Shown piece by piece: positions 2,296-16,634 of a stretch of 16,868 nucleotides of DNA (position 1 is the first letter of the stretch; each line of letters starts with the position of its first letter). The notes beneath the pieces were generated by a model. It saw only the letters and a list, made by a program, of their open reading frames with translations. It searched no databases and was not told the origin of the DNA. This DNA comes from a virus (lineage: Duplodnaviria > Heunggongvirae > Uroviricota > Caudoviricetes). Made by a program: the position numbers and the translations under genes. The stretch is from the IMG/VR virus record IMGVR_UViG_2671180804_000001; one strand, 5' to 3'.

Positions 2296-2387
2296 AATGA
2301 TATTGCGGGTCTAGGTCGGCCAACCGAAAAGCGGGATACCCTACCCGTCTGGCCCGCAAATTATTTAGGGGCGTTGAGGGTGACGGT

Positions 2388-3212: not shown

Positions 3213-3352
3213 GCCGGTTCCCGAGTTAGCCTAATGCCTCCCCGAGTTATGCTAACTCGGGTTTCAATACAAAGAAATATGCATCAAGATTCTCCAAACA
3301 ACGCCAGAACAGATAGGAAGTGTTCCTTCTGAGAGCGTTAACTGGAGGGTTT

Positions 3353-3637
3353 ATGCTAAATACTGTTTTCATCCCACCAACGGCTGAGCAGCGCCGCCAA
3401 ATTCTTAGGGACTACGGATTTGAATATGACCGACGTATTCGTGAGGCCGAATGCTTGGAAATAACTAGTCTTTCCCGCTCTACCCGCTGGAATATGGAAA
3501 ATGATAGTAAGTTTCCCACCCGCTGCCACTTTGGGCGTAACAGCTGCGCATGGCTCCTATCTGACATTCTTTGGTGGGTTCGTAATCCGCCTTCAGTGTT
3601 AAACGTAAATAATCCGCACAGCCGCAAGTCTGCATAA
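3353..3637 (+). CDS. alpA: AlpA-family phage regulatory protein (HTH, Xis-like)
   Basis: The segment ECLEITSLSRSTRWNMENDSKFPTRCHFGRNSCAWLLSDILWWV fits the AlpA pattern (HTH with SRST..., then GRxxxW and a W-containing helix). The ORF track starts at GTG 3320; I prefer ATG 3353 because GGAGGG lies 5 nt upstream. Confidence 0.7.
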   Translation: MLNTVFIPPTAEQRRQILRDYGFEYDRRIREAECLEITSLSRSTRWNMENDSKFPTRCHFGRNSCAWLLSDILWWVRNPPSVLNVNNPHSRKSA

Positions 3638-3753
3638 ACAGTTTAGATAAGATCATTACTGAGCATTTGTTGCGTGCTGTTGCGTTAGTTATACAGCAGT
3701 ATTGCTAACGCTGTCGCGGCGGCTCTCAATTTGAATATATTGGAGCACTGAAA

Positions 3754-4566
3754 ATGTTATCGAAAAAATTTACTGCCTTAACTGGTAGCGGCCAAACTCA
3801 ATCTGAAACCAGCCCGAAGGATATTTCTGGTAATAATTTTGCTGCGCGAATTCCTGTAACCCTAAGCAATATCGGCGGGAAAGAAACTCAGGCTGTAAGC
3901 GGCCGTAAGCTGCATACGTTTCTGGCTGTAGGGCGTGACTTTACCAACTGGATCAAAGGGCGCATTAAGCAGTACGGGTTCGTCGAAGGGGTGGATTATA
4001 TGATTGTCGAATATTTGACCTCGCCAAAACGGGCGAGCTCAAAATCTCGCCAGCGTATTGAGCATGACTACATTGTCAGCCTGAATATGGCTAAAGAGCT
4101 TTCGATGGTTGAACGTAACGCGCAAGGCAAGATGGCCCGCCAGTATTTCATCGACTGTGAAGAGCGTCTGCGCCGCGTAGCGCCAGAGGAATACGAGGCG
4201 GCGTTGCTGGGCTGGCGTAAAAATCGTGTAGCTGCCTGTGAAGATCATAAAAGCATGGCCGATGCAATGAAGGGCTATATTGAGCGTACCGGCGACAGGC
4301 AACACGGATTTGCCTACAGCAATGAATGCTCGTTCCTGAATAGCCTTGTGCTGGGTGTGCATCCTCGAACGTGGGCGAAAAAGAAAGAAATTCCGGTAAA
4401 GCAGGTTCGTGACCATATGAATGCAGATCAACTGGCACAGCTGGCTTATTTGGAAAGCCGTGATTGTGCTCTGCTGGATCTTGATACCCGTACGGCAACC
4501 CGCAAGACAAAACTCACCGAACTGGCACAACGCTGGCTGGTTAGACGTGTTGGAGGTGCCGGATGA
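3754..4566 (+). CDS. Phage antirepressor-like protein (AntA/AntB N-terminal domain)
   Basis: 270 aa. N-terminal segment QAVSGRKLHTFLAVGRDFTNWIKGRIKQYGFVEGVDYMI resembles the AntA antirepressor domain. GGAG RBS 8 nt upstream of the ATG. Confidence 0.65.
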   Translation: MLSKKFTALTGSGQTQSETSPKDISGNNFAARIPVTLSNIGGKETQAVSGRKLHTFLAVGRDFTNWIKGRIKQYGFVEGVDYMIVEYLTSPKRASSKSRQRIEHDYIVSLNMAKELSMVERNAQGKMARQYFIDCEERLRRVAPEEYEAALLGWRKNRVAACEDHKSMADAMKGYIERTGDRQHGFAYSNECSFLNSLVLGVHPRTWAKKKEIPVKQVRDHMNADQLAQLAYLESRDCALLDLDTRTATRKTKLTELAQRWLVRRVGGAG

Positions 4567-4975
4567 TTGCGTATGAAGAAAAGGCGACCTTGCCGGGTCG
4601 CCAGTGCGGAATAAATCAAAAGCAAAATTATATTACCAGGCTGTCTGCTGGTGGTCAAAGGTTGAGCGATACGGGAATGATTGAGTTTTCTCCTGGTATC
4701 TCAGGAACTGCGGCAATGGCGCAGTTAGGGGGTACTGCATTGCAGCATACCCAATCACCTGAGTTTTCAGTAGCGACCATCTCACAGATAGTCGGTTGCA
4801 TTCTCAACACCCGCCAATACTTCCCCCAATGGGGGGAGTGTGAGCCGGTGGCACATACCCTGTTTTTGCGCACCTCATTAGGATGTGTACAAATCCTTCT
4901 TTTGTGCCCCCCCGTTCTGGGGCGCTCAAATATTGAGTGTCGAGGCCAGCGCAATTTTGCGCCCGCTGATTTTAT

Positions 4976-5161
4976 TCAGGATTTTGGCTCTTCTTTTGCC
5001 TTTTGGCGCTGGCGGCGTTTGATTTCGCCTTTCGCAGCAGTGACAAGAAACCCTGCGGTACTTTCACCTTCATGTTTAAAAAGCTCGATATCTTCCATCA
5101 CATCATGGGGGATTCGAACTGTGGTCATTTGTGACTTTGCATTCTTCGCACCTGTTGCCAT
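4976..5161 (-). CDS. Small DNA-binding regulator, ribbon-helix-helix-like (putative repressor)
   Basis: 61 aa with strong AAGGAG RBS on the minus strand. TTVRIPHDVMEDIELF followed by helices and a basic tail fits a beta-strand/helix/helix RHH layout. Transcribed divergently from the replication operon. Confidence 0.5.
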   Translation of the reverse strand: MATGAKNAKSQMTTVRIPHDVMEDIELFKHEGESTAGFLVTAAKGEIKRRQRQKAKEEPKS

Positions 5162-5355
5162 TACTGAAACTCCTTATGTTAGGTGTATTTCAGTATACGC
5201 AAAAAAAATAAAAGAAAAAGGCTTGAAGTGTATTTCACTTTGGGCTAGTTTGAATATTAAAGGTGACATACACCTTTCAAGTGCGAAGCCCGGTAGTGCT
5301 AGGAACACTAACCGGGCCTCTAACCACCGCCGTTAACGTAGATAACGAGGCAGCT
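5162..5355. promoter_or_regulatory. Divergent control region between the RHH regulator and the replication operon
   Basis: 194-bp gap between divergent starts. Contains a 10-bp direct repeat GTGTATTTCA (5183..5192 and 5228..5237), a GTATAC palindrome at 5193..5198, an inverted repeat AGGTG-ACATA-CACCT (5261..5275) and a long imperfect hairpin at 5288..5317. Confidence 0.45.
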
Positions 5356-5631
5356 ATGAAAGATCATATCACACACCCGCAAGGGCGGGATTCTGACAAC
5401 CAAAAATTAATGCCAGCCTACACATGGCTTTTCCTCGGCACACCAAAAGGCCAGACCTGCACACCTGTAGTTATCCGTACTGCCGCCGACACGGAAGAAG
5501 AAGCCCGAGCATGGTATCCCCGTTGGGATCTGACGTTCGCCGCGAAGATTCGCTCTGAATGTTCTTTGTACCAGTACCGCAACGGTGCTTTCGAATTAAC
5601 CGTGTCAGGGCTGGAGGTGCGCCATGCCTAA
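5356..5631 (+). CDS. Hypothetical protein (first gene of replication operon)
   Basis: ATG at 5356 with GAGG RBS 5 nt upstream. The ORF track extends to 5263, but that upstream part overlaps the leader hairpin. 91 aa. Confidence 0.5.
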
Positions 5632-5815
5632 TCTGAGCATGCTGGATATGGGCGACAAATTTCGCTCTCTGGAAGTCCTGTTAGCTGCGGCGCTGGAAAT
5701 GAACTGGAGTAAAGACGATGAGAGCGATATCGCCGTTGAGTTGATTGATATTGCTCTCCAGCGTTGCCGTGAATTGCGTCAGCAGGTGGATTTACCGGGG
5801 GTGAAGCATGTGTGA
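5624..5815 (+). CDS. Hypothetical protein
   Basis: 63 aa. GGAGG RBS; start overlaps the upstream stop by 8 nt, indicating translational coupling. Confidence 0.5.
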
Positions 5816-6116
5816 TATCTACCATCAACTTGTAAAGCACGCGCCAGATTTCAGAAGACATTCTGATGATGATTTATCTGAGGTTTCTGACGTCTGTGGC
5901 GAGGCAGCACGCGCTGTCAGCAATACCCTTACCCTGATTGGAAACCTGATGCTTGAGGCATCGCTGAGTGAGGAATACAGCAACGAAAACGCACGCCGCG
6001 ACATGATGTTGCTGGGTGACACGCTGCGAAATCTTCCCCGGCTAGCTGAGGCTCTGGAGCAGAACAGTTGCACAGCCAATTTTGTGCTCAGGCAGCGCCA
6101 GGGGGTGTTCAAATGA
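5808..6116 (+). CDS. Hypothetical protein
   Basis: 102 aa. Start overlaps the upstream gene by 8 nt within the same operon. Confidence 0.5.
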   Translation: MCDIYHQLVKHAPDFRRHSDDDLSEVSDVCGEAARAVSNTLTLIGNLMLEASLSEEYSNENARRDMMLLGDTLRNLPRLAEALEQNSCTANFVLRQRQGVFK

Positions 6117-6481
6117 TCAGTAACGTTAAATTCAACGAACTGGAAAAGCGCCTCGATTTGCTGGTGGAGAAGGTACTGAACCTCGAGCTGCAGATCAAAT
6201 CACTCACAGATAGCCAGGGTGGCGAAATCCCCACGGGTATGAGTCCTGTTACTACGCTGGCGGCGGAGTTTGGCATTTCAACCAAGAAGGCCGAAGAACT
6301 AGCGAAAAACACAGGGGTAATGCTGGTACGGCTAAAATCAGGCGGGTTCGTGGCTCCTGATGAGAAATTCAGGGAGGCGGCGCGGCTGGTGCTGCGTAGT
6401 GCAAAACGTAAATACGGATCGGCATACTGGTATCACCCGCTGATTGGTAAGTTCCAGATGAGTGGAGGTATCCCGCAATGA
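6113..6481 (+). CDS. Hypothetical protein with coiled-coil-like N-terminus
   Basis: ATG at 6113 preceded by GGGGGTG and overlapping the upstream stop (ATGA). The ORF track begins at 6068; the internal ATG is better placed. 122 aa. Confidence 0.5.
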   Translation: MISNVKFNELEKRLDLLVEKVLNLELQIKSLTDSQGGEIPTGMSPVTTLAAEFGISTKKAEELAKNTGVMLVRLKSGGFVAPDEKFREAARLVLRSAKRKYGSAYWYHPLIGKFQMSGGIPQ

Positions 6482-6843
6482 CCGATATTTTTGAAGTGAT
6501 AGGCCCATTGTTCCGCAAACTGACCGAAACATGTATTGCTCACCAGATAGCGGAAACCGGTTCGGCAACCTTGCTGGTGGAAAGCGATAAGTATATGGCC
6601 CGCTATCGCTTCACGCTGGAGCCGCGCGTAACTGAAAACGTATTGATGAAATATATGATTTTTGGCTGTTTTGAAGAATTCGGGCGCGATGAGGGGTTAA
6701 GGCGTTTGCGGGATATTCTGCTGACCTGCTTTACCGACGATGGCGATATTAACGAAATGGGGTTGCAGATAGTGAAAAGCTGCCACCTTGAATACCTGCA
6801 TGAAGATTTGGAAGCGGATCTTTCCAATAAGGTGCTGCACTGA
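6478..6843 (+). CDS. Hypothetical protein
   Basis: 121 aa. GGAGG RBS; ATGA overlap with the upstream gene and TGATG overlap with the downstream primase gene. Confidence 0.5.
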   Translation: MTDIFEVIGPLFRKLTETCIAHQIAETGSATLLVESDKYMARYRFTLEPRVTENVLMKYMIFGCFEEFGRDEGLRRLRDILLTCFTDDGDINEMGLQIVKSCHLEYLHEDLEADLSNKVLH

Positions 6844-8975
6844 TGAAGATGAAAAACGCCCCAAACATTAAGTGTCTGCCAAAGGACAAGTTTACTGAGG
6901 CGATTATTTTTGCGGGGGAAGATGCTTATTCACACGCGCAGCACTGGATCGAGAGCGAGGGGAAAAGGGCGGGGGATGATGTGCCGCCTGTGTATCTGGG
7001 GAAAAAGCAGCTGGAGGAGCTTGAAAGGCTGAATATCATCGATCAGGGGCGTCGTTGCGTACGCGTGATTAGAGCTGGCGAGCTTTCCGAAATGCAGATA
7101 AGCACTATCGCAACCAAACTGGCGCTGGCGGATGTGAAAGAGGCCCGGCTGTTTAATGGCATGTTTGAGCCTCAGCCGAAGGAGAACTGGACGGATGTAC
7201 TTCCACGGCTCAGGGAAGATGCCGAGCGTGGGGAAAGTATTGTGGTAAATCTGCCTGTGAAAAAAAGGGAGCCAAAGCCTGAACCGGGTGATGAACTGAA
7301 ACCCCGCGTAGAGAGCCGTAACGATGGCCTGTACTGGATCACGCCAAAGGTGGATAAGGACAGCGGAGAAATAATCAATAACGAAACGTGGATGTGTTCG
7401 CCGCTTGAGGTGGTGGGGTCCGGTAGTGACGGGGCCGAGCGCTATCTCGTTTTGCGCTGGCGTTCGCCACGTGGCCATGAAGATATTACCAGGGCGATCC
7501 CCTGTGCTGATATCGGTGAGCGTGACGGCTGGCGCTATCTAAAGGCTGGTGGGGTAAACGTAACGACTAAAAGTACATTCCGGGCAATTCTTGCCGACTG
7601 GCTACAGCAATGTGGTGCAGGGCAGGAATGGATTATTAGCCATACCACCGGCTGGCATCACGGCGCATACATCATGCCAGATGGTGAAGTTATCGGTGAT
7701 CCGGAAATGCCTATTCTCTTTAACGGTCGCAGCGCTGCATCTTCCGGTTATGCCGTGGCTGGAACTGCTGAGAGTTGGCGGGATTCAGTGGCATATCTGG
7801 CAGGAGGCAACCCATCGATGATGCTGGGTGTGGCTGCGGCATTGTCTGCGCCGCTGATCGGGCTGGTGGGCGCTGATGGCTTCGGCGTCCATTTGTTCGA
7901 ACAGTCCAGCGCCGGTAAGACTACCACCGCAAATATTGCGAGCAGTATTTGGGGCGAGCCCGACGCTTTGAGGTTGACCTGGTACGGTACCGCGCTTGGT
8001 ATTGCTAACGAGGCAGAGGCGCATAACGACAGCCTGTTACCACTTGATGAGGTAGGGCAGGGCAGCAGTGCTAAAGATGTCGCCACGTCTGCTTACACTT
8101 TGTTTAACGGGGCTGGGAAGTTGCAGGGGGCTAAAGAGGGTGGCAACCGGGAGCTAAAGCGCTGGCGAACTGTTGCGATCAGTACCGGGGAAATGGATAT
8201 TGAAACATTCCTGGCTGCTGGTGGAATTAGGGTGAAAGCTGGGCAGCTGGTGCGCCTGCTGAATATCCCCATGGAGAAATCCACGGCCTTTAACGGGCTG
8301 GCTAACGGAAAGGCCCACGCCGATGCACTGAAAGAGTCATGGATTGATAACCACGGCGCAGCAGGGCGTGAGTGGGTAAAATGGCTGGCAACCCACCAGC
8401 AGGAGGCTAAACAGGCTGTGCGGGATGCGCAGACGCGCTGGCGCAGTCTTATTCCGGCTGATTATGGTGAACAGGTTCATCGTGTGGCTGAGCGCTTCGC
8501 CATTCTTGAGGCTGCGCTGGTAACTGGTTCGCCGATAACTGGCTGGAGTGAACAAGCCAGCCGGGATGCTATTCAGCATAGCTTCAATGCCTGGGTAAAA
8601 GAATTCGGAACAGGTAACAAGGAGCACCAGCAGATCATCGAGCAGTGCGAGGCCTTTCTGAACGCGCATGGTATGAGCCGCTATGCTCCGCTGCCATACT
8701 GCCCGTCAGATATGCCAATTCGTGATATGGCTGGATACCGCGAAAGGGGCAAGCATGATGATTCGCCGATGGTGTTTTATACCTTCCCTTCTGCGTTCGA
8801 AAAAGAGATAGCGCAGGGGTTCAATGCGAAGCAGTTCGCCAGAGTTCTGTCTGAATCTGGAATGTTGACACCCCCAGCAAGCGGCAGGGGATACCAGCGG
8901 AAATCACCGCGTATCGATGGGCGTCAGATTAATGTTTACGTCATTCAGTACCAGCAGGAGGGAACCGAAGAATAA
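6843..8975 (+). CDS. Replication initiator, primase/helicase-like protein (P4 alpha-like role)
   Basis: 710 aa, last gene of the coupled operon and immediately upstream of the iteron array. Contains a P-loop-like motif (LFEQSSAGKTTTAN). Resembles satellite/prophage primase-helicase proteins of the DUF927 type; that assignment is from memory, not a search. Confidence 0.75.
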   Translation: MKMKNAPNIKCLPKDKFTEAIIFAGEDAYSHAQHWIESEGKRAGDDVPPVYLGKKQLEELERLNIIDQGRRCVRVIRAGELSEMQISTIATKLALADVKEARLFNGMFEPQPKENWTDVLPRLREDAERGESIVVNLPVKKREPKPEPGDELKPRVESRNDGLYWITPKVDKDSGEIINNETWMCSPLEVVGSGSDGAERYLVLRWRSPRGHEDITRAIPCADIGERDGWRYLKAGGVNVTTKSTFRAILADWLQQCGAGQEWIISHTTGWHHGAYIMPDGEVIGDPEMPILFNGRSAASSGYAVAGTAESWRDSVAYLAGGNPSMMLGVAAALSAPLIGLVGADGFGVHLFEQSSAGKTTTANIASSIWGEPDALRLTWYGTALGIANEAEAHNDSLLPLDEVGQGSSAKDVATSAYTLFNGAGKLQGAKEGGNRELKRWRTVAISTGEMDIETFLAAGGIRVKAGQLVRLLNIPMEKSTAFNGLANGKAHADALKESWIDNHGAAGREWVKWLATHQQEAKQAVRDAQTRWRSLIPADYGEQVHRVAERFAILEAALVTGSPITGWSEQASRDAIQHSFNAWVKEFGTGNKEHQQIIEQCEAFLNAHGMSRYAPLPYCPSDMPIRDMAGYRERGKHDDSPMVFYTFPSAFEKEIAQGFNAKQFARVLSESGMLTPPASGRGYQRKSPRIDGRQINVYVIQYQQEGTEE

Positions 8976-8995
8976 TTACACGTGAGGTTTATTTT

Positions 8996-9284
8996 GTTGG
9001 TTCAGTTGGTTCAGTAGGTAGTGTGTATCGTTATCGTGGTGTTTATATTGATTATTTTACACAGAAACTGAACCAACACTGAACCAACAAATGACTGTTT
9101 TGAACCAACAAGCGGGGGATTTGAACCAACATACCTACCCTGCCCGAATAAGTGTTTTTACTGAACCAACATAAAAACGGCGTTGTTGGTTCAAAACGGG
9201 GCTTTGTTGGTTCACTAAATAAAAATAAGTCTTTTAAAAACAATGTTCTTTACAAATTGAACCAACTGAACCAACTGAACCAAC
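8996..9284. repeat. Iteron array, putative origin of replication
   Basis: 12 exact copies of the 9-mer TGAACCAAC / GTTGGTTCA. Forward copies start at 9069, 9080, 9101, 9122, 9162, 9258, 9267, 9276; reverse copies at 8996, 9005, 9185, 9206. The array begins about 20 bp after the primase stop. Confidence 0.75.
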
Positions 9285-9321
9285 ATAGTTTTGTTTATAT
9301 ACGCAGAAAATGAGGTGAAAA

Positions 9322-9543
9322 ATGTTGGATGCCGGAATGATTGAGAAGAAATCAGCAGGAAGTGCATCGTTGTGGATGCGTGAGGCTGTGGAGGAAATAG
9401 ATAAACAATTTGGCGTTGGCTATGCCAGCAACAACCCTGAGCTGGTGGCAGGGTTCATGCAGGCAGCAGCCATTGATCAGGCGGGGATGTATATCCGGTC
9501 GCTGGTGGAAACGCTGGATTTATGGCCCGGTTCGCTGGCTTAA
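9322..9543 (+). CDS. Hypothetical small protein
   Basis: 73 aa with GAGGTG RBS, directly downstream of the iterons. Confidence 0.5.
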   Translation: MLDAGMIEKKSAGSASLWMREAVEEIDKQFGVGYASNNPELVAGFMQAAAIDQAGMYIRSLVETLDLWPGSLA

Positions 9544-9588
9544 AGCTGAGAGTAAGCCAAAAAACAACATAATTGATGGAGGTAATTT

Positions 9589-9783
9589 ATGGCCTTTAAC
9601 GATTTTATGGAAGAATCGGAATTGTTTGAGCTACTGGGCAAGAAAAAAACGGCTGTATGGCGGTTACGAAAAGACCATGGTTTTCCGAATCCTGTTCTTA
9701 CCTACCCGTCGCGCTACAGCCGCAAAGCTGTAATGAAATGGCTTGAGGATGGTGGTATTAACCGTACGGTTTGTGGTTATTGA
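9589..9783 (+). CDS. AlpA/Xis-like helix-turn-helix DNA-binding protein (second copy in the element)
   Basis: 64 aa with GGAGG RBS. ELFELLGKKKTAVWRLRKDHGFPNPVLTYPSRYSRKAVMKWLE fits the AlpA/excisionase HTH pattern. Confidence 0.6.
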   Translation: MAFNDFMEESELFELLGKKKTAVWRLRKDHGFPNPVLTYPSRYSRKAVMKWLEDGGINRTVCGY

Positions 9784-9798
9784 ACCTGAATTTATCTG

Positions 9799-9827
9799 GC
9801 TGCACTCTTTTGGGTGCAGTTATTTTC
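9799..9827 (+). terminator. Rho-independent terminator after the AlpA-like gene
   Basis: GCTGCAC - tcttttgg - GTGCAGT stem-loop followed by TATTTTCC. Confidence 0.5.
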
Positions 9828-10048
9828 CTGTCAGGTAGGGATGGATGTTGATCATTACCTGTAATCATTATTCTCCGGCATACCGTTCGCCTCTTCGCGT
9901 AAAGTTGCCTGGTCATTGGAAACCTCGCCTTTCTGACCAGTTAGAAAAATCCTAGTGGTTAACATCTGTTGAATAAAACAGCAAAAAGGAGTTCACACCT
10001 TACGCACTATACAGTGCTACGCCCAAAGCCGCGTCAACGCTGGCTTTC

Positions 10049-10150
10049 GGGGGTATACACCCCTTGTGCATAAATAGTGAAACTTGTATACAAAAATGCA
10101 GAAAATCAGCCTGCAAGCCGCACCAGATAAGAGTTGTCTGTGTATACAGA
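10049..10150. promoter_or_regulatory. Cluster of GTATAC-centred palindromes (putative operators) upstream of the AT-rich operon
   Basis: GGGGGTATACACCCC (10049..10063), the perfect palindrome TTGTATACAA (10085..10094) and TGTATACA (about 10143..10150), all within roughly 100 bp of a 570-bp non-coding region. Confidence 0.35.
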
Positions 10151-10353
10151 TAGGATTTAAATTTGTTTAAACTAACCACCCTTTGATATGGTTTGATTGT
10201 CCAACTGTCTGCTGGCTGTATGTGTACCTAACGGGGAAGAGTGATGTTCCTCGCACTAATGTTTTCATTAAACGGGTATCTTTGATGGAGTTTGGTTAAG
10301 AATTCACAGCAGGGTTGTAGAATGTTTTTATCATTAATGGAGATGTATGGAAT

Positions 10354-10710
10354 ATGCAAAGACTGGTTGAAATTAAAAAACGCCTTGAATTAATCGAAGA
10401 AGCATTAAATGAACAGTATCCAAATTATAAATCAGACCCTGAGATTACAGCACAAATTACAGAATTGAAAGGACATGTACAAGACGCTCGTAAAATAATA
10501 CAAAAAAAGAAATCCCTGGGTGAACTATCAGACTTTGAAATAGCATTTATCGAACCAGCTATTAATGATGTTTACTTAACCTCGATCGATAAAATTCGTC
10601 GTGGAGCCAAACCTAGCCCTAGCGTGAGTGAACATATATACGATACGTCTGTGACTTTGGATCATTGGTTGGGCGAAATTGGTAGGTTTAAATCCAATCA
10701 GAATGGTTAA
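10354..10710 (+). CDS. Hypothetical protein, gene 1 of the AT-rich cargo operon
   Basis: 118 aa, charged and predicted helical. A sampled stretch (10381..10440) is about 33% G+C. No recognisable motif. Confidence 0.55.
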   Translation: MQRLVEIKKRLELIEEALNEQYPNYKSDPEITAQITELKGHVQDARKIIQKKKSLGELSDFEIAFIEPAINDVYLTSIDKIRRGAKPSPSVSEHIYDTSVTLDHWLGEIGRFKSNQNG

Positions 10711-10761
10711 AGCGATTTGTAATGTTTTGATTTTTGTAAGGGTGGAATTCGGAGGGGAGAA

Positions 10762-11664
10762 ATGGTAGCAAGCGTATCAACTAAGGAAAATTTGCCTAAG
10801 CTGGAGACAACCTTTCATGTCAAAGCGAATGGTTCAAGTATAAATATCAAACTTGGTGCTTTAGAGTTTAATCATGTCTTATCTCCATGTGAAAAATATT
10901 TATATGTTCAACTTTGTAACTCAACGTCTGAGGACTCAGGTAAATTCATTAAATTAGATGTAACTACTGGACGTAAAATTTATTCGGTAGGGCCTGAGTG
11001 GGGATGGGCCAGAGGCTATACATTTAATCATGATGGAAATATTTGTGTTGAGACAGATCACTATGGTACCTGGTTAGTTAATGATGATGGAGGTATTTCA
11101 GACCGCGCTGATTACTATATGCGCCGCGTGAAGACTGCTGATTATGGAACGATGAGAGCTTTGCCTAATTTTTTTGAGTTGCATGGGAAAACACCTGAAA
11201 CATGTGCCGAGGCGATGGAGGCTCTTGAACGATTTTTGAGTACATGTTCATCCATGTTCCATGGATTGTCGTATGGTGCTCTGGCATTAAAATCACGTGC
11301 TGAGATTCAAGCCTTTTTGGGTGATAACTCAGGGGCACTACAGAGTTGCGTTGATGCTTTATGCCTTGACCCAAAAGTTACAGTTAAACGAATGCTGAAT
11401 TCACTTAGTAAAAAACTTAATCTTGATAAAGACACTTTAAAACCTTCCGATTGGGTTGAGTCGCTAAAAGTTGATATAGAAGCCAATCGTAATATTGAAA
11501 TCAATAAGATTGAAGAAAATCGCAATCAGATAAAAGATAAGGATGTGATTGTTGTCAGTGACATGAAAATTATGAATAAAGAACCACATGCTAAAAATAA
11601 CATCATGAAATATTTTTTGCTGATAGTGGTCTTAGTGGCAGCATTAGTTGCTCTCTTCAAATGA
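10762..11664 (+). CDS. Hypothetical membrane-anchored protein, gene 2 of the AT-rich cargo operon
   Basis: 300 aa with strong GGAGGGGAG RBS. Single hydrophobic helix at the extreme C-terminus (YFLLIVVLVAALVALF); the rest looks soluble. AT-rich. Confidence 0.6.
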   Translation: MVASVSTKENLPKLETTFHVKANGSSINIKLGALEFNHVLSPCEKYLYVQLCNSTSEDSGKFIKLDVTTGRKIYSVGPEWGWARGYTFNHDGNICVETDHYGTWLVNDDGGISDRADYYMRRVKTADYGTMRALPNFFELHGKTPETCAEAMEALERFLSTCSSMFHGLSYGALALKSRAEIQAFLGDNSGALQSCVDALCLDPKVTVKRMLNSLSKKLNLDKDTLKPSDWVESLKVDIEANRNIEINKIEENRNQIKDKDVIVVSDMKIMNKEPHAKNNIMKYFLLIVVLVAALVALFK

Positions 11665-11702
11665 TATTCATATAGGTGATTAATAATCATAAGGTTTAGT
11701 TT

Positions 11703-12224
11703 ATGCAGGAGCTAACGATACAGTTTGCCAAAGATTTACACAGTGTGTTTCAAAGCAATCGCAATAAATTAGATAAGATAGGAATACCATTTTTTTATAG
11801 TTTTCCGACAAATGCATGCCAGGGCGCATCTGTGTATCTTAGCTTATTTTTTACGTGGCTTGTGCCAGAGGCTACTGTCAGAGTTGTTAAAGGAAGTCAT
11901 AGAACGCTGGATCATCATCACTACTGGGTCGAACTTGATGGGAAGGTGTTTGATTTGACAAATGCTCAGTTCGAATCCTGGTTGGGAGAAAGGTATCCTG
12001 AGCTGGACTCTCCTGTATATGCTCAAAGAAAGCATCCTCTTCGTAATTATTTTTTTTATAAAGAAAGAGAGTCGGCCATCCGTGCTTATGCAACATTCTG
12101 TAGCGAGCATGCGAACGTAAAAGATGTAGACAAGGCGCAATGGTTTGTTATGGGGAAACTCAGAGAAATGGGCTGGGAACTTGAGCAGAACATCGCTGGT
12201 GGCCGATTGATAAAAATAAGATAG
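11703..12224 (+). CDS. Hypothetical protein, gene 3 of the AT-rich cargo operon
   Basis: 173 aa. Contains a conserved-looking Cys (TNACQGAS) and a His cluster (LDHHHYWVELDG) that could form a Cys/His catalytic pair; this is speculative. AT-rich. Confidence 0.55.
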   Translation: MQELTIQFAKDLHSVFQSNRNKLDKIGIPFFYSFPTNACQGASVYLSLFFTWLVPEATVRVVKGSHRTLDHHHYWVELDGKVFDLTNAQFESWLGERYPELDSPVYAQRKHPLRNYFFYKERESAIRAYATFCSEHANVKDVDKAQWFVMGKLREMGWELEQNIAGGRLIKIR

Positions 12225-12249
12225 CCAGTTACCACCACTGATAGCGATT

Positions 12250-12274
12250 GGCGATGTTGTTACATCGCCTTTTT
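12250..12274 (+). terminator. Rho-independent terminator closing the AT-rich operon
   Basis: Perfect 8-bp stem GGCGATGT / ACATCGCC with a 4-nt loop, followed by TTTTT. Confidence 0.6.
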
Positions 12275-12366
12275 CATATCATTATCGTTTCATTTTATGC
12301 AATAAATGTATTGATCGTTTCATAATCAGCAACTACAATCACTGTATAAACATCAGGGGGGGTGGT

Positions 12367-12543
12367 ATGAACAAGAAGCAAAACTCACAAGTAGTGCTAC
12401 TGACGCGTGGTCAGGTTGAAGCTTTGCAACGCATTCAGGAAGAGGAGCGTAAACGTTCTGAATTTGGCATACAGCCATCAATCCATGAAATCGCACGCAA
12501 GCTGGTGGATAAGGCGCTGAGCTATCACGGAGGTGCTTTCTGA
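12367..12543 (+). CDS. Small putative DNA-binding protein (RHH-like), absent from the supplied ORF track
   Basis: 58-aa ORF translated by hand: MNKKQNSQVVLLTRGQVEALQRIQEEERKRSEFGIQPSIHEIARKLVDKALSYHGGAF. GGGGGTGG RBS upstream. Its stop overlaps the next start as TGATG. It falls below the apparent length cut-off of the ORF track. Confidence 0.45.
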   Translation: MNKKQNSQVVLLTRGQVEALQRIQEEERKRSEFGIQPSIHEIARKLVDKALSYHGGAF

Positions 12544-13379
12544 TGGCAAAAGTATCGTTAACAGCACTCCTTGGATTTACTGGTGGCGCAAATAACGTCC
12601 GCAATTCCCAAAAGCCAACACTTCGACAGCGGGAAAAATCCATGAGCAAAAAAGAGCGTAGCTTTGCACATCTTGATGCTGCGGCTACTCAAACGATTGT
12701 GGTGCAGGACCAGCAGCAAACCCAGACTCTGAAACCAGCCGGTTCTTACCGTATTTCCAGTCAGCATAGCCGGGGGCATAACGTTGCAATATCAGAGGAA
12801 GGGAAGAATAGCCCTGTCCTGGCGGTTAAGCTGTTACGTGAAACGAAACTAAGCTCCAGTAAAATCCGTGCTCGCCTTCGGGAAGAGCCTGCGGCTTTAT
12901 CAAAGTTCACGGCTAATTTCATGGAAGAAAATATGCCAGGCTGGGAATTTCTCAACGATGAGGAAAAATCCAGAACTGCCATGCAGCTATCCATTCGCGA
13001 TAATGATCAGAACGGTTATCACGCTTCCCGGAATCGTGCATCTCAAACGCTTAAATCGCTTGAAGAACCACTTACTGATGATGAAAAGCAGGCGATGCTC
13101 GAAAATCTTCGTCTGGACCAAAATGCTTCCGATCCTGATACCCCGGATAATGTTGCGGCCCGAAAACAAGCTGACGATGAATATCAGGAGCAGGTTGCCA
13201 GGGCTATTGTTGCCAGAAACAATCAAATGCGTTCCACCGGTGTGTTCTTGCCAGGCGATACCCGTACAGCTGGTGGTAAGCCCTCCGCACCTCGAAATGA
13301 GTTGCAGATGATTAAGTCTGGTCTTAAATCCGGGGCTATTGTGGTTTCTCAGCCCTCAAATGGAGAAATTCATCCATGA
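12543..13379 (+). CDS. Hypothetical protein, long paralogue of the following gene
   Basis: 278 aa with GGAGGTG RBS 7 nt upstream; coupled to the small ORF upstream. Shares a domain of about 100 aa with the next gene. Confidence 0.5.
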   Translation: MAKVSLTALLGFTGGANNVRNSQKPTLRQREKSMSKKERSFAHLDAAATQTIVVQDQQQTQTLKPAGSYRISSQHSRGHNVAISEEGKNSPVLAVKLLRETKLSSSKIRARLREEPAALSKFTANFMEENMPGWEFLNDEEKSRTAMQLSIRDNDQNGYHASRNRASQTLKSLEEPLTDDEKQAMLENLRLDQNASDPDTPDNVAARKQADDEYQEQVARAIVARNNQMRSTGVFLPGDTRTAGGKPSAPRNELQMIKSGLKSGAIVVSQPSNGEIHP

Positions 13380-13825
13380 CTTTCAGCCACCTGAATAACA
13401 GTCCCATGGCTGTGGCAGGTGGCCTTTGGGCCTCTGTCACCCCGATAACAAATGATGTCACTACGATGTCAGCGCATGCAGAGGCCCACTATATTGCGAG
13501 CAGCGAACCAGCTAAACACAACCCCATACTTGCTCTCCGTCTTATTGAACAGGGCATACCTCACCAGAAAGCAATCAGTGTGCTGGAGAAGTCCCCGCGA
13601 GCGCTAAGCAATTATACCGTTCGGAAAATGGAACGTTTCTGCCCCGGCTGGGAGCTGATGACTGAAGAAATGCAGAATATGGAGGCGTATCTCCATAGTG
13701 TCAGAACCAGCGATGGAAATGGATATCTGGCTTGTATGAACGCGGCCACAGCGGCATTAAATAAATTTATAGAGCCGGTAACGGCTGAAGACTTTATCCT
13801 GGTGGGAGATAGTGCTGATGTCTAA
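13376..13825 (+). CDS. Hypothetical protein, short paralogue of the preceding gene
   Basis: 149 aa; ATGA overlap with the upstream gene. RKMERFCPGWELMTEE...DGNGYLA aligns with NFMEENMPGWEFLNDE...DQNGYHA in the preceding protein. Confidence 0.5.
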   Translation: MTFSHLNNSPMAVAGGLWASVTPITNDVTTMSAHAEAHYIASSEPAKHNPILALRLIEQGIPHQKAISVLEKSPRALSNYTVRKMERFCPGWELMTEEMQNMEAYLHSVRTSDGNGYLACMNAATAALNKFIEPVTAEDFILVGDSADV

Positions 13826-14228
13826 TTCATTTGATTTTGAGCTGGTGGCTGACGATAAGGTCAGTGGTGCAATTGAGCGTATTAATGAATCACTGAATGA
13901 CTTGCAGCCGAAGCTGGATAAAACCAGAACGGGGCTGCAATTCGGTGGGCAGGAAACACTGGATGGTTTGAACGGGTATAACTCTCGCCTTGAGCTGATG
14001 GCCCAAAGCGCCAGAGATAATGTGCAGTATATCGGTAATATGGTCCCACCATTAAAATGGTTGGGGATATCTCCGGAAAGCTGGAGAAAATGGCGAAGAT
14101 TGGCCTTGTCGGTGGTGCTATTGGTGGTGTTGCCTACGCAACTGGAAAACTGGCTGAAAGCTACCGGGAAGCATCGCGTGAGGCCTATAACCTTGACGTA
14201 TCGTCTAAAAATGCCGGAATGCGGGTAG
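13818..14228 (+). CDS. N-terminal fragment of a frameshift-interrupted gene
   Basis: ATG 13818 with GGGAG RBS. Translation looks protein-like up to about 14040. After that the frame gives W/R-rich sequence, while the -1 frame (ORF 14057..14878) opens at 14039 and looks protein-like. Confidence 0.4.
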   Translation: MSNSFDFELVADDKVSGAIERINESLNDLQPKLDKTRTGLQFGGQETLDGLNGYNSRLELMAQSARDNVQYIGNMVPPLKWLGISPESWRKWRRLALSVVLLVVLPTQLENWLKATGKHRVRPITLTYRLKMPECG

Positions 14229-14878
14229 ACGACTTCTCTCGCCTTGCTGGTGCGTTGCAGTTTGTCGGCGCTGATAGTGAGAGCGCCAGTTCGTCTATTG
14301 AGGGATTTGCGAAGGCGCTGAAGGAGGCAAGTAGCGGCAGCAATCAGGGCATGATGGCGGCATTTGCGACAATTGGTGTGCAGATACAGAAAAATAAAGA
14401 CGGGTCTGTTGATACGCTAAAAACGTTACAGGAAATTGCGAGAATTTTCCCTAAATACCGCTCGGAACAACAGAAGTCAATCGCTGACAGTCTTGGTCTG
14501 ACACCTGAAATGCTGGCGTTAATGCGTGAGGGGGCGCGAATGAAAACCCTTCTGGCAAAAGCCGATAAAGTTGGACTGACAGTCGATCCCACGCTCAATC
14601 AGCAACTGACGGACTTTAACTCTGCAATAAACGAGGTCAGTGCCTCATGGGATGGCTTTAAGTCTAAAGTCGAGCGTAAAATTTACTCGCACCTTGATAA
14701 TAACGGCATAACAGATACTGTACGTGGCGCATCTGATATGCTTGAGAACAACTTTGACAATATCTCAATTGGTCGCTTCTCGGGACAAAACAAAGGGGAT
14801 GATTCTGCATTAATGCGCCGAGCATTGCGCGACCCTGAGTTTATCAAACAGCTCGATGGGAATGAAAAAACCAGCTGA
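14057..14878 (+). CDS. Central segment of the interrupted gene
   Basis: 273-aa ORF in the -1 frame relative to 13818. No RBS at its own ATG, so it is more likely a continuation than an independent gene. The helical, Ala/Leu-rich composition loosely resembles the N-terminal part of tape-measure-like proteins; this is my impression only. Confidence 0.5.
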   Translation: MVGDISGKLEKMAKIGLVGGAIGGVAYATGKLAESYREASREAYNLDVSSKNAGMRVDDFSRLAGALQFVGADSESASSSIEGFAKALKEASSGSNQGMMAAFATIGVQIQKNKDGSVDTLKTLQEIARIFPKYRSEQQKSIADSLGLTPEMLALMREGARMKTLLAKADKVGLTVDPTLNQQLTDFNSAINEVSASWDGFKSKVERKIYSHLDNNGITDTVRGASDMLENNFDNISIGRFSGQNKGDDSALMRRALRDPEFIKQLDGNEKTS

Positions 14879-14889
14879 CTGCTGGCGTT

Positions 14890-15642
14890 ATGACTGATCA
14901 GGCGAGAAATAAATACCGCAGACATTATTATAACCAGGACAGGGCACAACAATTACTGGACGATATGTCCGCCATTACCCGCCCTCAGGCTCCAGGTAGA
15001 AATAATGTGCCATATAACCAAGGGGGTCAGTATGATTCTATTTTTAGCGATGCTGGCAAAAAATGGGGCGTCGACCCGCGTCTACTCAAAGCCATTATGA
15101 TGCAAGAATCTGGTGGCAATCCTAATGCTATTAGTGACGCTGATGCTCGTGGGTTAATGCAGATAATCCCCCCGAACTTCAAAGCCACCGGGATAACGGA
15201 CTGGAAAGACCCAAACCAGAATATTAATGCTGGAGCACAAATTTTATCCGAAAACTTACAGAGGTCAGGTGGCGACGTACCTCTGGCGCTTCGATATTAC
15301 CACGGAGGATATGACCGCCGTCGATGGGGGCCAAAAAATCAGGCTTATCCATATGCGGTCCTCGATAATTACCAGCAAATTATTAAAGGTGAAGCCCGCC
15401 AACGTGACGGCTTTCCAGATATCCCCATTAATGGGCAATCTGCAGGTTCAGGAATTTTGCAGCCAATTCAGAATGGGAGCCGTAGTGAAAGTACGCTCAC
15501 TGATAACCTGGCTCGTTCGCTTAAAGAGGCAATGTCCGATCAGACGCTGAAGCTTGAAATCACCATGGTCAATGATAAGGGTGAACGTAAGACCTACAAC
15601 GTTGAGAATAATGGACGGATCACCACGCCAATGAATTATTGA
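14890..15642 (+). CDS. Lytic transglycosylase (SLT) domain protein, C-terminal segment of the interrupted gene
   Basis: 250 aa. Family-1 lytic transglycosylase motifs are present: MMQESGGNPNA (catalytic Glu-Ser), GLMQI, and a downstream YYHGG block. Its frame is open from 14866 and overlaps the stop of the preceding ORF at an A6 homopolymer. Confidence 0.7.
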   Translation: MTDQARNKYRRHYYNQDRAQQLLDDMSAITRPQAPGRNNVPYNQGGQYDSIFSDAGKKWGVDPRLLKAIMMQESGGNPNAISDADARGLMQIIPPNFKATGITDWKDPNQNINAGAQILSENLQRSGGDVPLALRYYHGGYDRRRWGPKNQAYPYAVLDNYQQIIKGEARQRDGFPDIPINGQSAGSGILQPIQNGSRSESTLTDNLARSLKEAMSDQTLKLEITMVNDKGERKTYNVENNGRITTPMNY

Positions 15643-15755
15643 TACCGACAGGCACTCAGGAGGTGACCGTATATAAAAATGGGTCCTTCCTGAGACTTTT
15701 GTAAGGCACGGGCATTGCGCGCCGCAGTGTTTTCCTAGCTACAGGTTTTGAATTT

Positions 15756-15961
15756 GATTGACACTTTACACTAAGGTTTTTCCGGTTGCTGGGTTGTTAA
15801 CTCCCTTGAGCGGCAAGGGATTACCGGGAATAACCGCCGATCCTGATTGACAGTCAGATTGACACTTTCTGCCTGAAAAGTGTCAACCGGACAGAAAAAG
15901 TGTCAAGTAGCTGGCGCTTTACAGTTTGATTGACAGTTTCCCGCTGGTGGGTTGACACATT
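15756..15961. promoter_or_regulatory. Cluster of TTGACA(C/G)TTT repeats upstream of the TerS-like gene
   Basis: Copies at 15756..15767, 15845..15854, 15857..15868, 15928..15939 and 15952..15961 (forward) and 15877..15886 and 15897..15906 (reverse). The pair 15857..15868 / 15877..15886 forms an inverted repeat around a short spacer. Confidence 0.45.
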
Positions 15962-15994
15962 GCCTGCCAATGACAATTACCCAGGAGAAAAAAT

Positions 15995-16582
15995 ATGTCA
16001 CTGATGAGTGTGAGTCAGTACGCTAAACACGCAGGGCTAAGTCGTCAGGCCCTTTACAACTGGGAGGCTAAGCAAGGTTTCCCCGCACGAGTGGACGGCA
16101 AGATTGACCAACTGGCCTGTGATGCTTATCTAGCCCGGTATCGTAGTAGCAGTGACCCGCGTACAAAGAATGCAAAGAGCAAGCCCATATCGGCTAGGGA
16201 GGTAAAGTCGATGGGGCGTGAACCGGTAGATATGAGTGTGACCGAGATAAAGCGCATTATGGCTGGCGACGCTAACAAAGCGGCCGGAATGGTCCTAGAA
16301 GAGCATGCTCAACTAGCTGCACAAGCAGTGGGCCTGTTTTTGAGTAAAGGGCCGAATAATCCCCCTGTCACATTTGGTGGTTACCGCTTGTCGATTGTTG
16401 AAACGCCAGATCATGAAGTTGGGCAGATCATTGCTGGTGGTGCGTTCGGCCTGTCTGCTGACGATGTAATTTTTGAATGCCGGGATTACACCCTGGCACT
16501 AATGAGTGATGAGACCGAAGAAACAGCCATGCGGAGGGTTACTCCTTCGCTACTGTACGCCCTGGCCGACTACAACCACTAA
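15995..16582 (+). CDS. HTH-domain protein, terminase small subunit-like (possible packaging protein)
   Basis: 195 aa with GGAG RBS. The N-terminal HTH (VSQYAKHAGLSRQALYNWEAKQGFP) is similar in pattern to the lambda Nu1-type TerS DNA-binding motif, as I recall it. Confidence 0.5.
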   Translation: MSLMSVSQYAKHAGLSRQALYNWEAKQGFPARVDGKIDQLACDAYLARYRSSSDPRTKNAKSKPISAREVKSMGREPVDMSVTEIKRIMAGDANKAAGMVLEEHAQLAAQAVGLFLSKGPNNPPVTFGGYRLSIVETPDHEVGQIIAGGAFGLSADDVIFECRDYTLALMSDETEETAMRRVTPSLLYALADYNH

Positions 16583-16610
16583 AGCAAAGTGTGCCTGCAG
16601 GCTCCTGTTT

Positions 16611-16634
16611 GCCAGCCTCCGGGCTGGTTTTTTT
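16611..16634 (+). terminator. Rho-independent terminator
   Basis: CCAGCC - tccg - GGCTGG stem-loop followed by TTTTTTT, about 30 bp after the TerS-like stop. Confidence 0.65.

What the first reader, a model, noticed from the sequence alone, without database searches (positions are those of the whole stretch)
10354..12224. AT-rich three-gene operon of unknown function in the post-ori variable region: top candidate for a novel system
Three consecutive plus-strand genes of 118, 300 and 173 aa form a discrete transcription unit, with a long non-coding region upstream and a perfect intrinsic terminator at 12250..12274. Intergenic gaps are only 52 and 39 bp, and G+C is about 33% in a sampled stretch versus about 62% in the primase gene, indicating a recently acquired cassette. 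The position after the ori and before the packaging genes is where PICI-type satellites are reported to carry anti-phage systems. None of the three proteins shows a Walker A, HNH, PD-(D/E)xK or other motif I recognise, so this may be an undescribed multi-component system.
Basis: partly seen in the sequence, partly recalled or inferred. Interest (0 to 1): 0.8.

Follow-up and report, generated by a model that had tools for sequence, protein, structure and literature searches.

The report
Satellite hotspot cargo: unknown two-gene cassette
The three AT-rich genes are real and lie in the cargo slot next to the replication origin of a phage-satellite island. They are not one three-part system: the first is a common satellite gene, and the other two form a very rare mobile pair that is probably an undescribed anti-phage module, though this is untested.

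Summary
Three intact plus-strand ORFs (118, 300 and 173 aa) lie between a promoter-like site and a clean terminator. Their G+C is 38%, against 54% for the primase gene. They sit just after the ori iterons, in a region that differs between related satellites.

The three-component reading does not hold.
- Gene A (10354-10710) occurs without B or C in 16 other fetched loci, each time just downstream of the replication gene. It looks like a satellite gene.
- Genes B and C occur together without A in six other settings: a defence island, three integrative islands, one metagenome contig with no characterised flanks, and a prophage tail-fibre site. Each also occurs alone.
- B is a tail-anchored membrane protein with a partial beta-propeller and TPR-like helices. 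About 174 distant relatives exist; most are soluble, and two carry nuclease fusions.
- C has an invariant Cys39/His73/Asp84 set and weak YunG-family similarity, which suggests a papain-like thiol enzyme.
- B-linked C proteins carry a C-terminal hairpin that C-only versions lack.

No known defence family matches any of the three (PADLOC, Pfam, NCBIfam, PHROGs, PDB). Neighbouring genes in the same slot include Rosmer-like and PDC-S54 defence genes.

Best reading: B-C is a new defence-type cargo pair. Function and mechanism are unproven.

The parts
8987..9296 (.). Satellite replication origin: at least 12 TGAACCAAC iterons in both orientations, directly after the DUF927 primase/helicase gene (6843..8975).
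   Evidence: the repeat finder; Pfam DUF927
9598..10149 (+). Segment shared by both parental lineages: gene g64 (9589..9783), a terminator-like hairpin (9797..9822) and a conserved intergenic stretch. The E. coli-type left arm (2053..10149, 98.5% to L001) and the Kluyvera-type right arm (9598..16633, 95% to L003) overlap here, so this is the likely recombination junction.
   Evidence: blastn; terminator scan
10296..10323 (+). Promoter-like site (TTAAGA-16-TAGAAT), 30 bp upstream of gene A. This is a consensus match only.
10354..10710 (+). Gene A, 118 aa. The PDB profile matches to its N-terminal half are to coiled-coil and long-helix proteins, which suggests a coiled-coil-like N-terminus; no structure was predicted. 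Conserved motifs are GELSxFExAFIEPAI and IRRGAKPS. It is a satellite-associated gene found just downstream of the replication gene in many satellites, without B or C. Function unknown.
10762..11664 (+). Gene B, 300 aa. Residues 1-110 (10762..11091) are beta-rich partial-propeller blades. Residues 115-257 (11104..11532) are TPR-like helices ending in the conserved motif DALxLDPKxxVKRML. Residues 258-276 are a disordered linker. Residues 277-299 (11590..11658) form a C-terminal membrane helix, making B a tail-anchored protein.
   Evidence: AlphaFold model pLDDT 82; Foldseek WD40/TPR matches; alignment; profile search giving 174 relatives; TPR Pfam hits in 71 of 109 relatives; hydrophobicity scan of the relatives
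11703..12224 (+). Gene C, 173 aa, a predicted Cys-His-Asp thiol enzyme. Cys39 (11817..11819) sits immediately before the N-terminus of helix 40-53. His73 (11919..11921) and Asp84 (11952..11954) lie on or just after the next strands. All three are invariant down to 26% identity. The C-terminal hairpin, residues 158-173 (12174..12221), is found only in B-linked versions.
12250..12274 (+). Intrinsic terminator: an 8-bp G+C-rich perfect stem, a 4-nt loop and a T5 run. It closes the A-B-C unit before the conserved late-gene promoter region, which starts at about 12284.

Best explanation
The window is an integrated, mosaic PICI-like phage satellite. In order it carries int, an AlpA-like gene, AntA, an Icd-like gene, a DUF927 primase/helicase, ori iterons, an accessory slot and a late module. 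The finding covers the accessory slot, which holds two separable things.

1. Gene A is a satellite gene of unknown role. It recurs just downstream of the replication module in many satellites and is not tied to B or C.

2. Genes B and C form a small mobile two-gene cassette that moves between satellites, prophages and genomic or defence islands.

Inferred mechanism, not shown. B is anchored in the inner membrane by its C-terminal helix, with its beta-propeller/TPR surface in the cytoplasm acting as a protein-binding sensor for an incoming phage or mobile-element component. C is a cytoplasmic papain-like Cys-His-Asp hydrolase or transferase that docks on B through its C-terminal hairpin. It either processes the bound target or cleaves B's disordered linker to trigger the response. 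The outcome is exclusion or abortive infection of a competing phage, which benefits the satellite and its host.

B can probably act alone, because it occurs alone and the wider family is mostly stand-alone. C would then act as an added enzymatic partner.
For: Shown:
- The ORFs, the terminator and low G+C are real.
- The slot is variable between near-identical elements. It lies just after pri and ori, which is the PICI immune region described in PMC11364771.
- B-C adjacency, same order with a 19-46 bp gap, is kept at 62-75% protein identity in six settings without A. These are a Pantoea island beside Zorya-like, SymE and CdiI genes (L007), a Serratia island (L010/11), a metagenome island directly after a PDC-S54 gene (L013), a Citrobacter island beside AbiTii (L021/22), a metagenome contig whose flanks were not examined (L047), and a myovirus prophage after the tail-fibre assembly gene (L045).
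- B-only loci sit in the same satellite slot next to a Rosmer-like RmrA (L014) and an FtsK/SspH-like ATPase (L008).
- A distant C-like gene lies next to an AAA_21 plus HNH pair.
- All intact B-linked C proteins carry a 13-20 aa C-terminal extension that both close C-only types lack (L023-25; the Erwinia type L026/L053/L054).
- One decayed Pantoea copy has lost the 5' end of B and carries a nonsense codon in C.
- B and C are AT-rich relative to their surroundings in every host except one Citrobacter C.
- Fold evidence: B is beta blades, TPR-like helices and a TM helix. Distant relatives carry VRR-NUC or DEDDh nuclease fusions, which is typical modular sensor-effector behaviour.
- C has invariant C39/H73/D84 with papain-like topology and consistent weak YunG hits in 11 of 11 close members plus all 4 distant relatives.
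Against: - There is no functional evidence at all; defence is guilt by association.
- B and C each occur alone, so coupling is not obligate.
- The sample is small: about 15 B clusters and 10 C clusters among 5.8 billion proteins.
- C's fold has no significant structural match (best Foldseek E 0.2 in PDB, 0.026 in BFVD). The YunG scores stay below Pfam's threshold (21.8-25.9 against 27 bits). The papain-like assignment therefore rests on motif and topology.
- Most distant B relatives are soluble stand-alone 'TPR proteins' on megaplasmids with no obvious defence neighbours.
- The B-C interaction and any cleavage are pure inference.
- The satellite's late TMP/SLT gene is frameshifted in this window, so the element may be decaying.
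Confidence: 0.5

Rival explanations
1. One reading: A, B and C are three components of one undescribed multi-protein system and need each other.
For: The genes are tightly spaced on the same strand, with one promoter-like site and one terminator. The same arrangement is kept in the Kluyvera satellite.
Against: The Kluyvera copy belongs to the same 95%-identical 7-kb block, so it is not an independent observation. A is found in 16 other fetched loci without B or C. B-C is found in six settings without A and without any upstream A analogue. In four of these the pair has its own conserved upstream region, which gene A replaces in the window.
Confidence: 0.06
2. B and C are two independent single-gene cargo genes that often travel together only because they share hotspots. 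There is no functional coupling.
For: B-only loci exist (L008/9, L012, L014/15), as do C-only loci (L023-26, L053/54 and distant Vibrio-type loci). The wider B family is stand-alone.
Against: The same order and short gap are kept across six unrelated settings at 62-75% identity. The C-terminal extension of C correlates perfectly with the presence of B. B and C decayed together in L048.
Confidence: 0.22
3. The genes serve the satellite's own life cycle, for example helper-phage interference, capsid or packaging redirection, or late-gene regulation, rather than host defence.
For: They lie between the replication and late modules. A is syntenic in capsid-forming-type and other satellites, just before the morphogenesis genes. 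For gene A alone this reading is plausible.
Against: B-C also occurs in non-satellite islands and in a prophage. Many close relatives of this satellite lack B-C altogether. No similarity was found to any solved structure, and nothing matched in PHROGs.
Confidence: 0.1
4. B-C is a toxin-antitoxin or addiction pair, or alternatively a counter-defence or other fitness factor carried as a moron.
For: It is a small two-gene cassette on mobile elements. It includes a membrane protein, a common toxin type, next to a small enzyme.
Against: Each gene is stably maintained without the other, which argues against toxin-antitoxin dependence. There are no PADLOC or Pfam TA-family hits. No evidence bears on counter-defence either way.
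Confidence: 0.1

Closest known systems
Immune cargo in the pri-adjacent accessory region of PICIs (e.g. Tai systems; He et al. 2024, PMC11364771) and the P2/P4 hotspots (Rousset et al. 2022, PMC9122126)
   Same: The cassette sits in the same place: directly downstream of the satellite primase and ori and before the late genes. The content varies between near-identical elements. The genes are AT-rich and orphan-like. Known or candidate defence genes occupy the same slot in relatives.
   Different: tblastn against 50,697 phage genomes found no match for A, B or C, although most Tai homologues are phage-borne. There are no PADLOC hits. Tai is a single gene, whereas this is a membrane-anchored propeller/TPR protein plus a thiol-enzyme-like protein.
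YunG (PF24585) and Phage_YunG-like (PF24591) families, for protein C
   Same: All 11 close C homologues and all 4 distant ones hit YunG over the H-x-W-x-E...D-x-T-x-x-Q-F segment. Three of the 15 also hit the phage YunG-like model.
   Different: Scores of 18-26 bits are below the 27-bit gathering cut-off. C is longer than the 116-position model: it has an extra N-terminal helix pair and a C-terminal helix plus hairpin. The YunG family itself has no established function, to my knowledge.
Papain-like / transglutaminase-like cysteine hydrolases (e.g. LapG, vasohibin, USP-type isopeptidases)
   Same: An invariant Cys sits immediately before the N-terminus of a helix, followed by His and Asp on or after the next beta strands. 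LapG, vasohibin, USP28/USP7 and USPL1 appear among the top weak structure or sequence matches.
Uncharacterised stand-alone 'tetratricopeptide repeat proteins' of about 320-340 aa on megaplasmids and phage-plasmids (e.g. WP_311978523.1 of Pantoea agglomerans, WP_088922469.1 of P. aeruginosa), for protein B
   Same: They share the beta-blade plus TPR core and the terminal motif ALxL(D/N)PK(I/V)GVKR. HMM E-values reach 1e-19 and below.
   Different: These relatives have an extra N-terminal region of about 110 aa, not modelled here (possibly further blades), and no membrane helix. B is a shortened version with a coiled-coil-like linker and a C-terminal TM anchor, a feature seen only in the closest subfamily.

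Membership tests
PICI/satellite accessory (immune) region adjacent to pri | Located between the replication gene/ori and the packaging or late genes | tested here: met
   The primase gene is 6843..8975, the iterons 8987..9296, the cassette 10354..12224, and the late module starts at 12367.
PICI/satellite accessory (immune) region adjacent to pri | Content differs between otherwise closely related elements | tested here: met
   L001 is 98.5% identical up to 10149 and then carries PerC, IS5 and other genes. Other relatives carry Rosmer-like, FtsK-like or other genes in the slot.
PICI/satellite accessory (immune) region adjacent to pri | Cargo confers anti-phage protection | not testable with these tools
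   This needs cloning and phage challenge.
Known anti-phage systems (PADLOC-DB v2.0.0, including the PDC candidates) | HMM match of any component | tested here: not met
   0 families for A, B and C at E <= 1. Distant B relatives also gave none, apart from a fused DEDDh domain.
Tai (tail assembly inhibition) systems | Sequence similarity to Tai proteins, which are mostly phage-encoded | tested here: not met
   tblastn of A, B and C against 50,697 phage genomes found no match at E <= 0.01. Caveat: Tai homologues are only 22-43% identical to each other, so very remote similarity is not excluded.
YunG family (PF24585), protein C | Score at or above Pfam's gathering threshold (27 bits) | tested here: not met
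   Window C scores 21.8 bits and the best distant relative 25.9 bits. All 15 proteins tested hit the family below threshold.
Papain-like / transglutaminase-like Cys hydrolase superfamily, protein C | Nucleophile Cys at a helix N-terminus, with His and Asp/Asn on the following strands, all conserved | tested here: met
   C39 immediately precedes helix 40-53, H73 is in strand 72-78 and D84 follows strand 81-83. All are invariant in 12 sequences down to 26% identity. The 3D distances between them could not be checked.
Papain-like / transglutaminase-like Cys hydrolase superfamily, protein C | Significant fold or profile match to an established member | tested here: inconclusive
TPR-containing proteins, protein B | TPR motif detectable by sequence or fold | tested here: met
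   Window B itself has no Pfam hit. However, 71 of 109 HMM-linked relatives hit TPR_2 at the aligned position, and the model's helical domain matches designed and natural TPRs at probability 0.97-0.99.
Toxin-antitoxin pair | The two genes are never maintained without each other | tested here: not met
   B-only and C-only loci exist.
   The triple is present only in the window and in the 95%-identical Kluyvera block.

The most novel reading that the evidence does not exclude
B-C is a previously undescribed two-gene anti-phage system. A tail-anchored inner-membrane sensor, built from a truncated beta-propeller plus TPR, recruits a YunG-like Cys-His-Asp enzyme through a short C-terminal hairpin. 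This would give the orphan YunG / phage-YunG-like fold its first biological role, as a thiol hydrolase or transferase acting in phage-host conflict. It would also define a new sensor family, about 174 clusters across several phyla, that can be wired to membrane or nuclease outputs.
Probability: 0.33. Interest if true: 0.65.

Novelty: new variant of a known kind. Interest (0 to 1): 0.45.

Why it matters
If B-C protects against phages, it adds a defence module built from two protein families with no annotation. It would give a testable function to the YunG-like fold, which also occurs in phages. It would also show that the pri-adjacent slot of PICI-like satellites exchanges cargo with prophage tail-fibre morons and chromosomal defence islands across Escherichia, Kluyvera, Pantoea, Serratia and Citrobacter.

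The practical value is modest. Unknown genes in defence hotspots are common, and this pair is extremely rare: it is absent from 5,426 complete E. coli genomes, and B is absent from all 185,579 GTDB species representatives. The work also corrects the unit to clone. The test should use B-C, with A tested separately as a satellite gene.

Tried and rejected
- Family scans. Pfam, NCBIfam, PHROGs and PADLOC scans of A, B and C gave nothing above threshold.
- DNA and protein searches of the cassette. Megablast against E. coli genomes, phages and plasmids gave no match. Sensitive blastn against E. coli genomes gave no match. tblastn against phages gave no match. tblastn against plasmids gave only distant TPR proteins for B and one weak Proteus hit for C.
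- PDB sequence-profile searches with the A, B, C and extended C alignments found nothing informative. The only nominally sub-threshold hit (the DC-SIGNR neck for A, E 8e-5) looks like coiled-coil composition. The rest were chance-level, with USPL1 first for C at E 0.47.
- Is A a PerC analogue, since PerC occupies that position in L001? hhalign probability was 0.1%, so this was rejected.
- Rfam scan of 8900..12700 found no credible RNA family.
- GTDB and IMG/VR scans for B found nothing.
- A literature search for 'YunG' was useless because of surname matches.
- T6SS effector/immunity was considered because two B-C loci abut T6SS genes. It was rejected: neither protein has a predicted signal peptide from the sequence, B's bulk is predicted cytoplasmic, and the pair also lives on satellites and a prophage that carry no T6SS genes.
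Full report
**1. What is in the sequence**

The gaps between them are 51 and 38 bp, and each gene has an RBS-like run upstream. A perfect 8-bp stem with a 4-nt loop and a T5 run lies at 12250..12274. The 570 bp upstream (9784..10353) contain no long + strand ORF. They do contain a terminator-like hairpin at 9797..9822, which ends the preceding unit, and a promoter-like site at 10296..10323. These are consensus matches only, and the scan found no excess over shuffled sequence.

G+C is 35.9% for A, 37.5% for B and 41.6% for C (38.1% overall). The primase gene is 54.4% and the window 47%.

**2. The surrounding element**

The window starts in the E. coli yhdJ methylase gene, which matches 5,424 of 5,426 complete E. 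coli genomes. It then carries an integrated satellite-type element:
- a tyrosine integrase;
- an AT-rich 274-aa gene;
- an AlpA-like gene, AntA, and an ORF that a near-identical relative annotates as Icd-like;
- a DUF927 primase/helicase;
- at least 12 TGAACCAAC iterons at 8987..9296, which I read as the ori;
- two small genes, the A-B-C unit, and a late module.

The late module consists of g58, g278, g149, a TMP-like/SLT gene and g195. It is conserved in relatives that have different replication modules.

The element is a mosaic. Positions 2053..10149 are 98.5% identical to an E. coli element at the gcd/hpt site (L001). Positions 9598..16633 are 95% identical to a Kluyvera satellite with a D5_N-type primase (L003). 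In L001 and L002 the space between g64 and the late genes holds PerC, an IS5 fragment, a pRiA4b-ORF3 protein and several hypothetical genes instead.

So the 'post-ori variable region' is confirmed. He et al. 2024 describe exactly this pri-adjacent region of PICIs as a carrier of immune genes (PMC11364771).

**3. Are the three genes one unit?**

No. Homologues of all three are extremely rare among 5.8 billion protein clusters: 15 clusters for B, 10 for C and 11 for A, all from Enterobacterales. Their genomic settings were examined.

| Combination | Where it occurs |
|---|---|
| A-B-C together | Only the window and the Kluyvera block. These are the same 95%-identical 7-kb segment, so not independent observations. 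|
| A alone | 16 fetched loci, many near-identical (L016-20, L031-41). A always lies just downstream of the replication gene and often directly before capsid genes. |
| B-C without A | Six settings: a Pantoea allii island beside Zorya-like (MotB/EH-signature/SNF2), SymE and CdiI genes (L007); a Serratia island (L010/11); a metagenome island directly after a PDC-S54 gene (L013); a Citrobacter island beside AbiTii (L021/22); a metagenome contig whose flanks were not examined (L047); and a myovirus prophage right after the tail-fibre assembly gene (L045). |
| B alone | The same satellite slot, next to a Rosmer-like RmrA gene (L014), an FtsK/SspH-like ATPase (L008/9) or unknown genes (L012). |
| C alone | Serratia and Erwinia satellites (L023-26, L053/54). 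More distant C-like genes occur in Vibrio, Photobacterium and Endozoicomonas elements, one beside an AAA_21 plus HNH pair. |

Four of the B-C loci (L007, L010, L013, L021) share their own ~160-bp upstream region, which contains the palindrome TTGATAGTTATCAA. In the window, gene A takes the place of this region.

Two further observations tie B to C:
- Every intact B-linked C ends in a 13-20 aa extension (window residues 158-173, modelled as a beta hairpin), and the disrupted copies (L010, L048) still encode it downstream of their stop codons. Both close C-only types stop right after GWK(I/L). In L010 a nonsense codon (W158*) removes this extension.
- One decayed Pantoea copy (L048) has lost the 5' 640 bp of B and also carries W52* in C.

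B and C are AT-richer than their surroundings in every host examined, except one Citrobacter C.

**4. The proteins**

*Protein B.* The AlphaFold model has mean pLDDT 82. It has about 10 beta strands in residues 1-110, helical repeats in residues 115-257, a disordered linker in residues 258-276 and a terminal hydrophobic helix in residues 277-299. Foldseek returns WD40 propellers for the N-terminal part and TPR proteins for the helices, with no specific relative.

A profile search of 1.84 billion representatives finds 174 relatives. Most are soluble proteins of 320-340 aa with an extra N-terminal region, not modelled here (possibly further blades), and a terminal TPR; 71 of 109 hit TPR_2. They are annotated only as 'tetratricopeptide repeat protein' on megaplasmids and one phage-plasmid in Pantoea, Pseudomonas, Sphingobium and Salinibacter. 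A few have N-terminal TM segments, and two are fused to VRR-NUC or DEDDh nucleases. A C-terminal TM anchor is restricted to the closest subfamily. This looks like a binding or sensor core attached to interchangeable outputs.

*Protein C.* The model has pLDDT 83. The motifs SFPxNxC39, H73-(Y/F)-W-x-E77 and D84-x-T-x-x-Q-F are invariant down to 26% identity. Cys39 immediately precedes the N-terminus of a helix, and His73 and Asp84 lie on or just after the next strands, which is the papain/transglutaminase-like arrangement. All 15 family members tested hit Pfam YunG weakly (18-26 bits against a 27-bit cut-off), and three also hit Phage_YunG-like. Structural searches give no significant match. LapG, vasohibin and USP enzymes appear only at chance-level scores. 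The thiol-enzyme assignment is therefore an inference of moderate strength.

*Protein A.* Profile matches to PDB coiled-coil and long-helix proteins suggest a coiled-coil-like N-terminal half; no structure was predicted. Two motifs are conserved. It shows no similarity to PerC or to any known family.

**5. Interpretation**

The best-supported picture is a satellite accessory slot that holds a satellite gene (A) and a mobile two-gene cassette (B-C). The settings of B-C are those typical of anti-phage cargo: defence islands, prophage moron sites, and satellite hotspots next to Rosmer-like and PDC-S54 genes.

The proposed mechanism is inferred throughout. B, anchored in the membrane, binds a phage or mobile-element protein through its propeller/TPR face. 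C docks on B through its hairpin and processes either the target or B's linker. The result is exclusion or abortive infection.

The alternatives are set out with their evidence in the rival explanations: an obligate three-gene system, independent cargo genes, a satellite life-cycle function, and a toxin-antitoxin or counter-defence role.

**6. Novelty and score**

The kind of thing is known: immune-type cargo in a satellite hotspot. The two proteins belong to no described system, and one of them may give a role to the orphan YunG-like fold. Without functional data, and given that uncharacterised hotspot genes are common, the interest is moderate (0.45).

Noticed in passing
window 13812..15642: The late TMP-like/SLT gene is a single 608-aa ORF in the Kluyvera relative (L003 13055..14881). 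In the window it is split into three ORFs by two 1-bp deletions near 14054 and 14865. This is either a pseudogene or an assembly error.
   Followed up: yes
window 2053..10149 and 9598..16633: The element is a mosaic. The left arm is 98.5% identical to an E. coli satellite at the gcd/hpt site, although here it is integrated next to yhdJ with a different integrase (56% identity). The right arm is 95% identical to a Kluyvera satellite. The two arms overlap in g64 and the conserved intergenic region.
   Followed up: yes
window 12367..16582: The late module (g58, g278, g149, TMP-like/SLT, g195) is conserved across satellites that have DUF927, D5_N or DUF5906 replication genes. No capsid or terminase gene was detected in it. 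Some relatives add tail assembly chaperone or tail-fibre assembly genes. g278 and g149 are paralogues (~36% identity). This may be an undescribed satellite type that supplies tail-related proteins.
   Followed up: partly
window 2388..3212: A second AT-rich gene (36.7% G+C, 274 aa) lies directly after the integrase, at the 5' accessory position of PICIs. It has no Pfam or PADLOC hit, and relatives annotate it only as hypothetical.
   Followed up: partly
window 8987..9296: A dense array of at least 12 TGAACCAAC iterons in both orientations, including a 32-nt inverted pair, lies right after the primase gene. This is the presumed satellite origin of replication.
   Followed up: yes
L007 9840..10000; L010, L013 and L021 equivalents: The island-type B-C cassettes share a ~160-bp upstream region containing the palindrome TTGATAGTTATCAA. 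This may be an operator or promoter for the pair. It is absent from the window, where gene A precedes B.
   Followed up: partly
L010 10947..11468; L048 4703..5519: Decay variants exist. The Serratia copy of C has a W158* stop that removes only the B-linked hairpin. A Pantoea metagenome copy has a 5'-truncated B together with a W52* stop in C.
   Followed up: yes
L003 7352..8764: The Kluyvera satellite carries a second integrase-family gene (470 aa) between its primase gene and g64, in addition to the integrase at its left end.
   Followed up: no
window 3754..4566: The C-terminal half of the AntA-family protein matches the PADLOC candidate PDC-S22 (E 8e-13).
   Followed up: no
L027 8581..10600: In Vibrio sp. 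AND4 a distant C-like gene is followed by an AAA_21/AAA_15 ATPase and an HNH protein, a Septu-like pair, inside a prophage-like region.
   Followed up: partly
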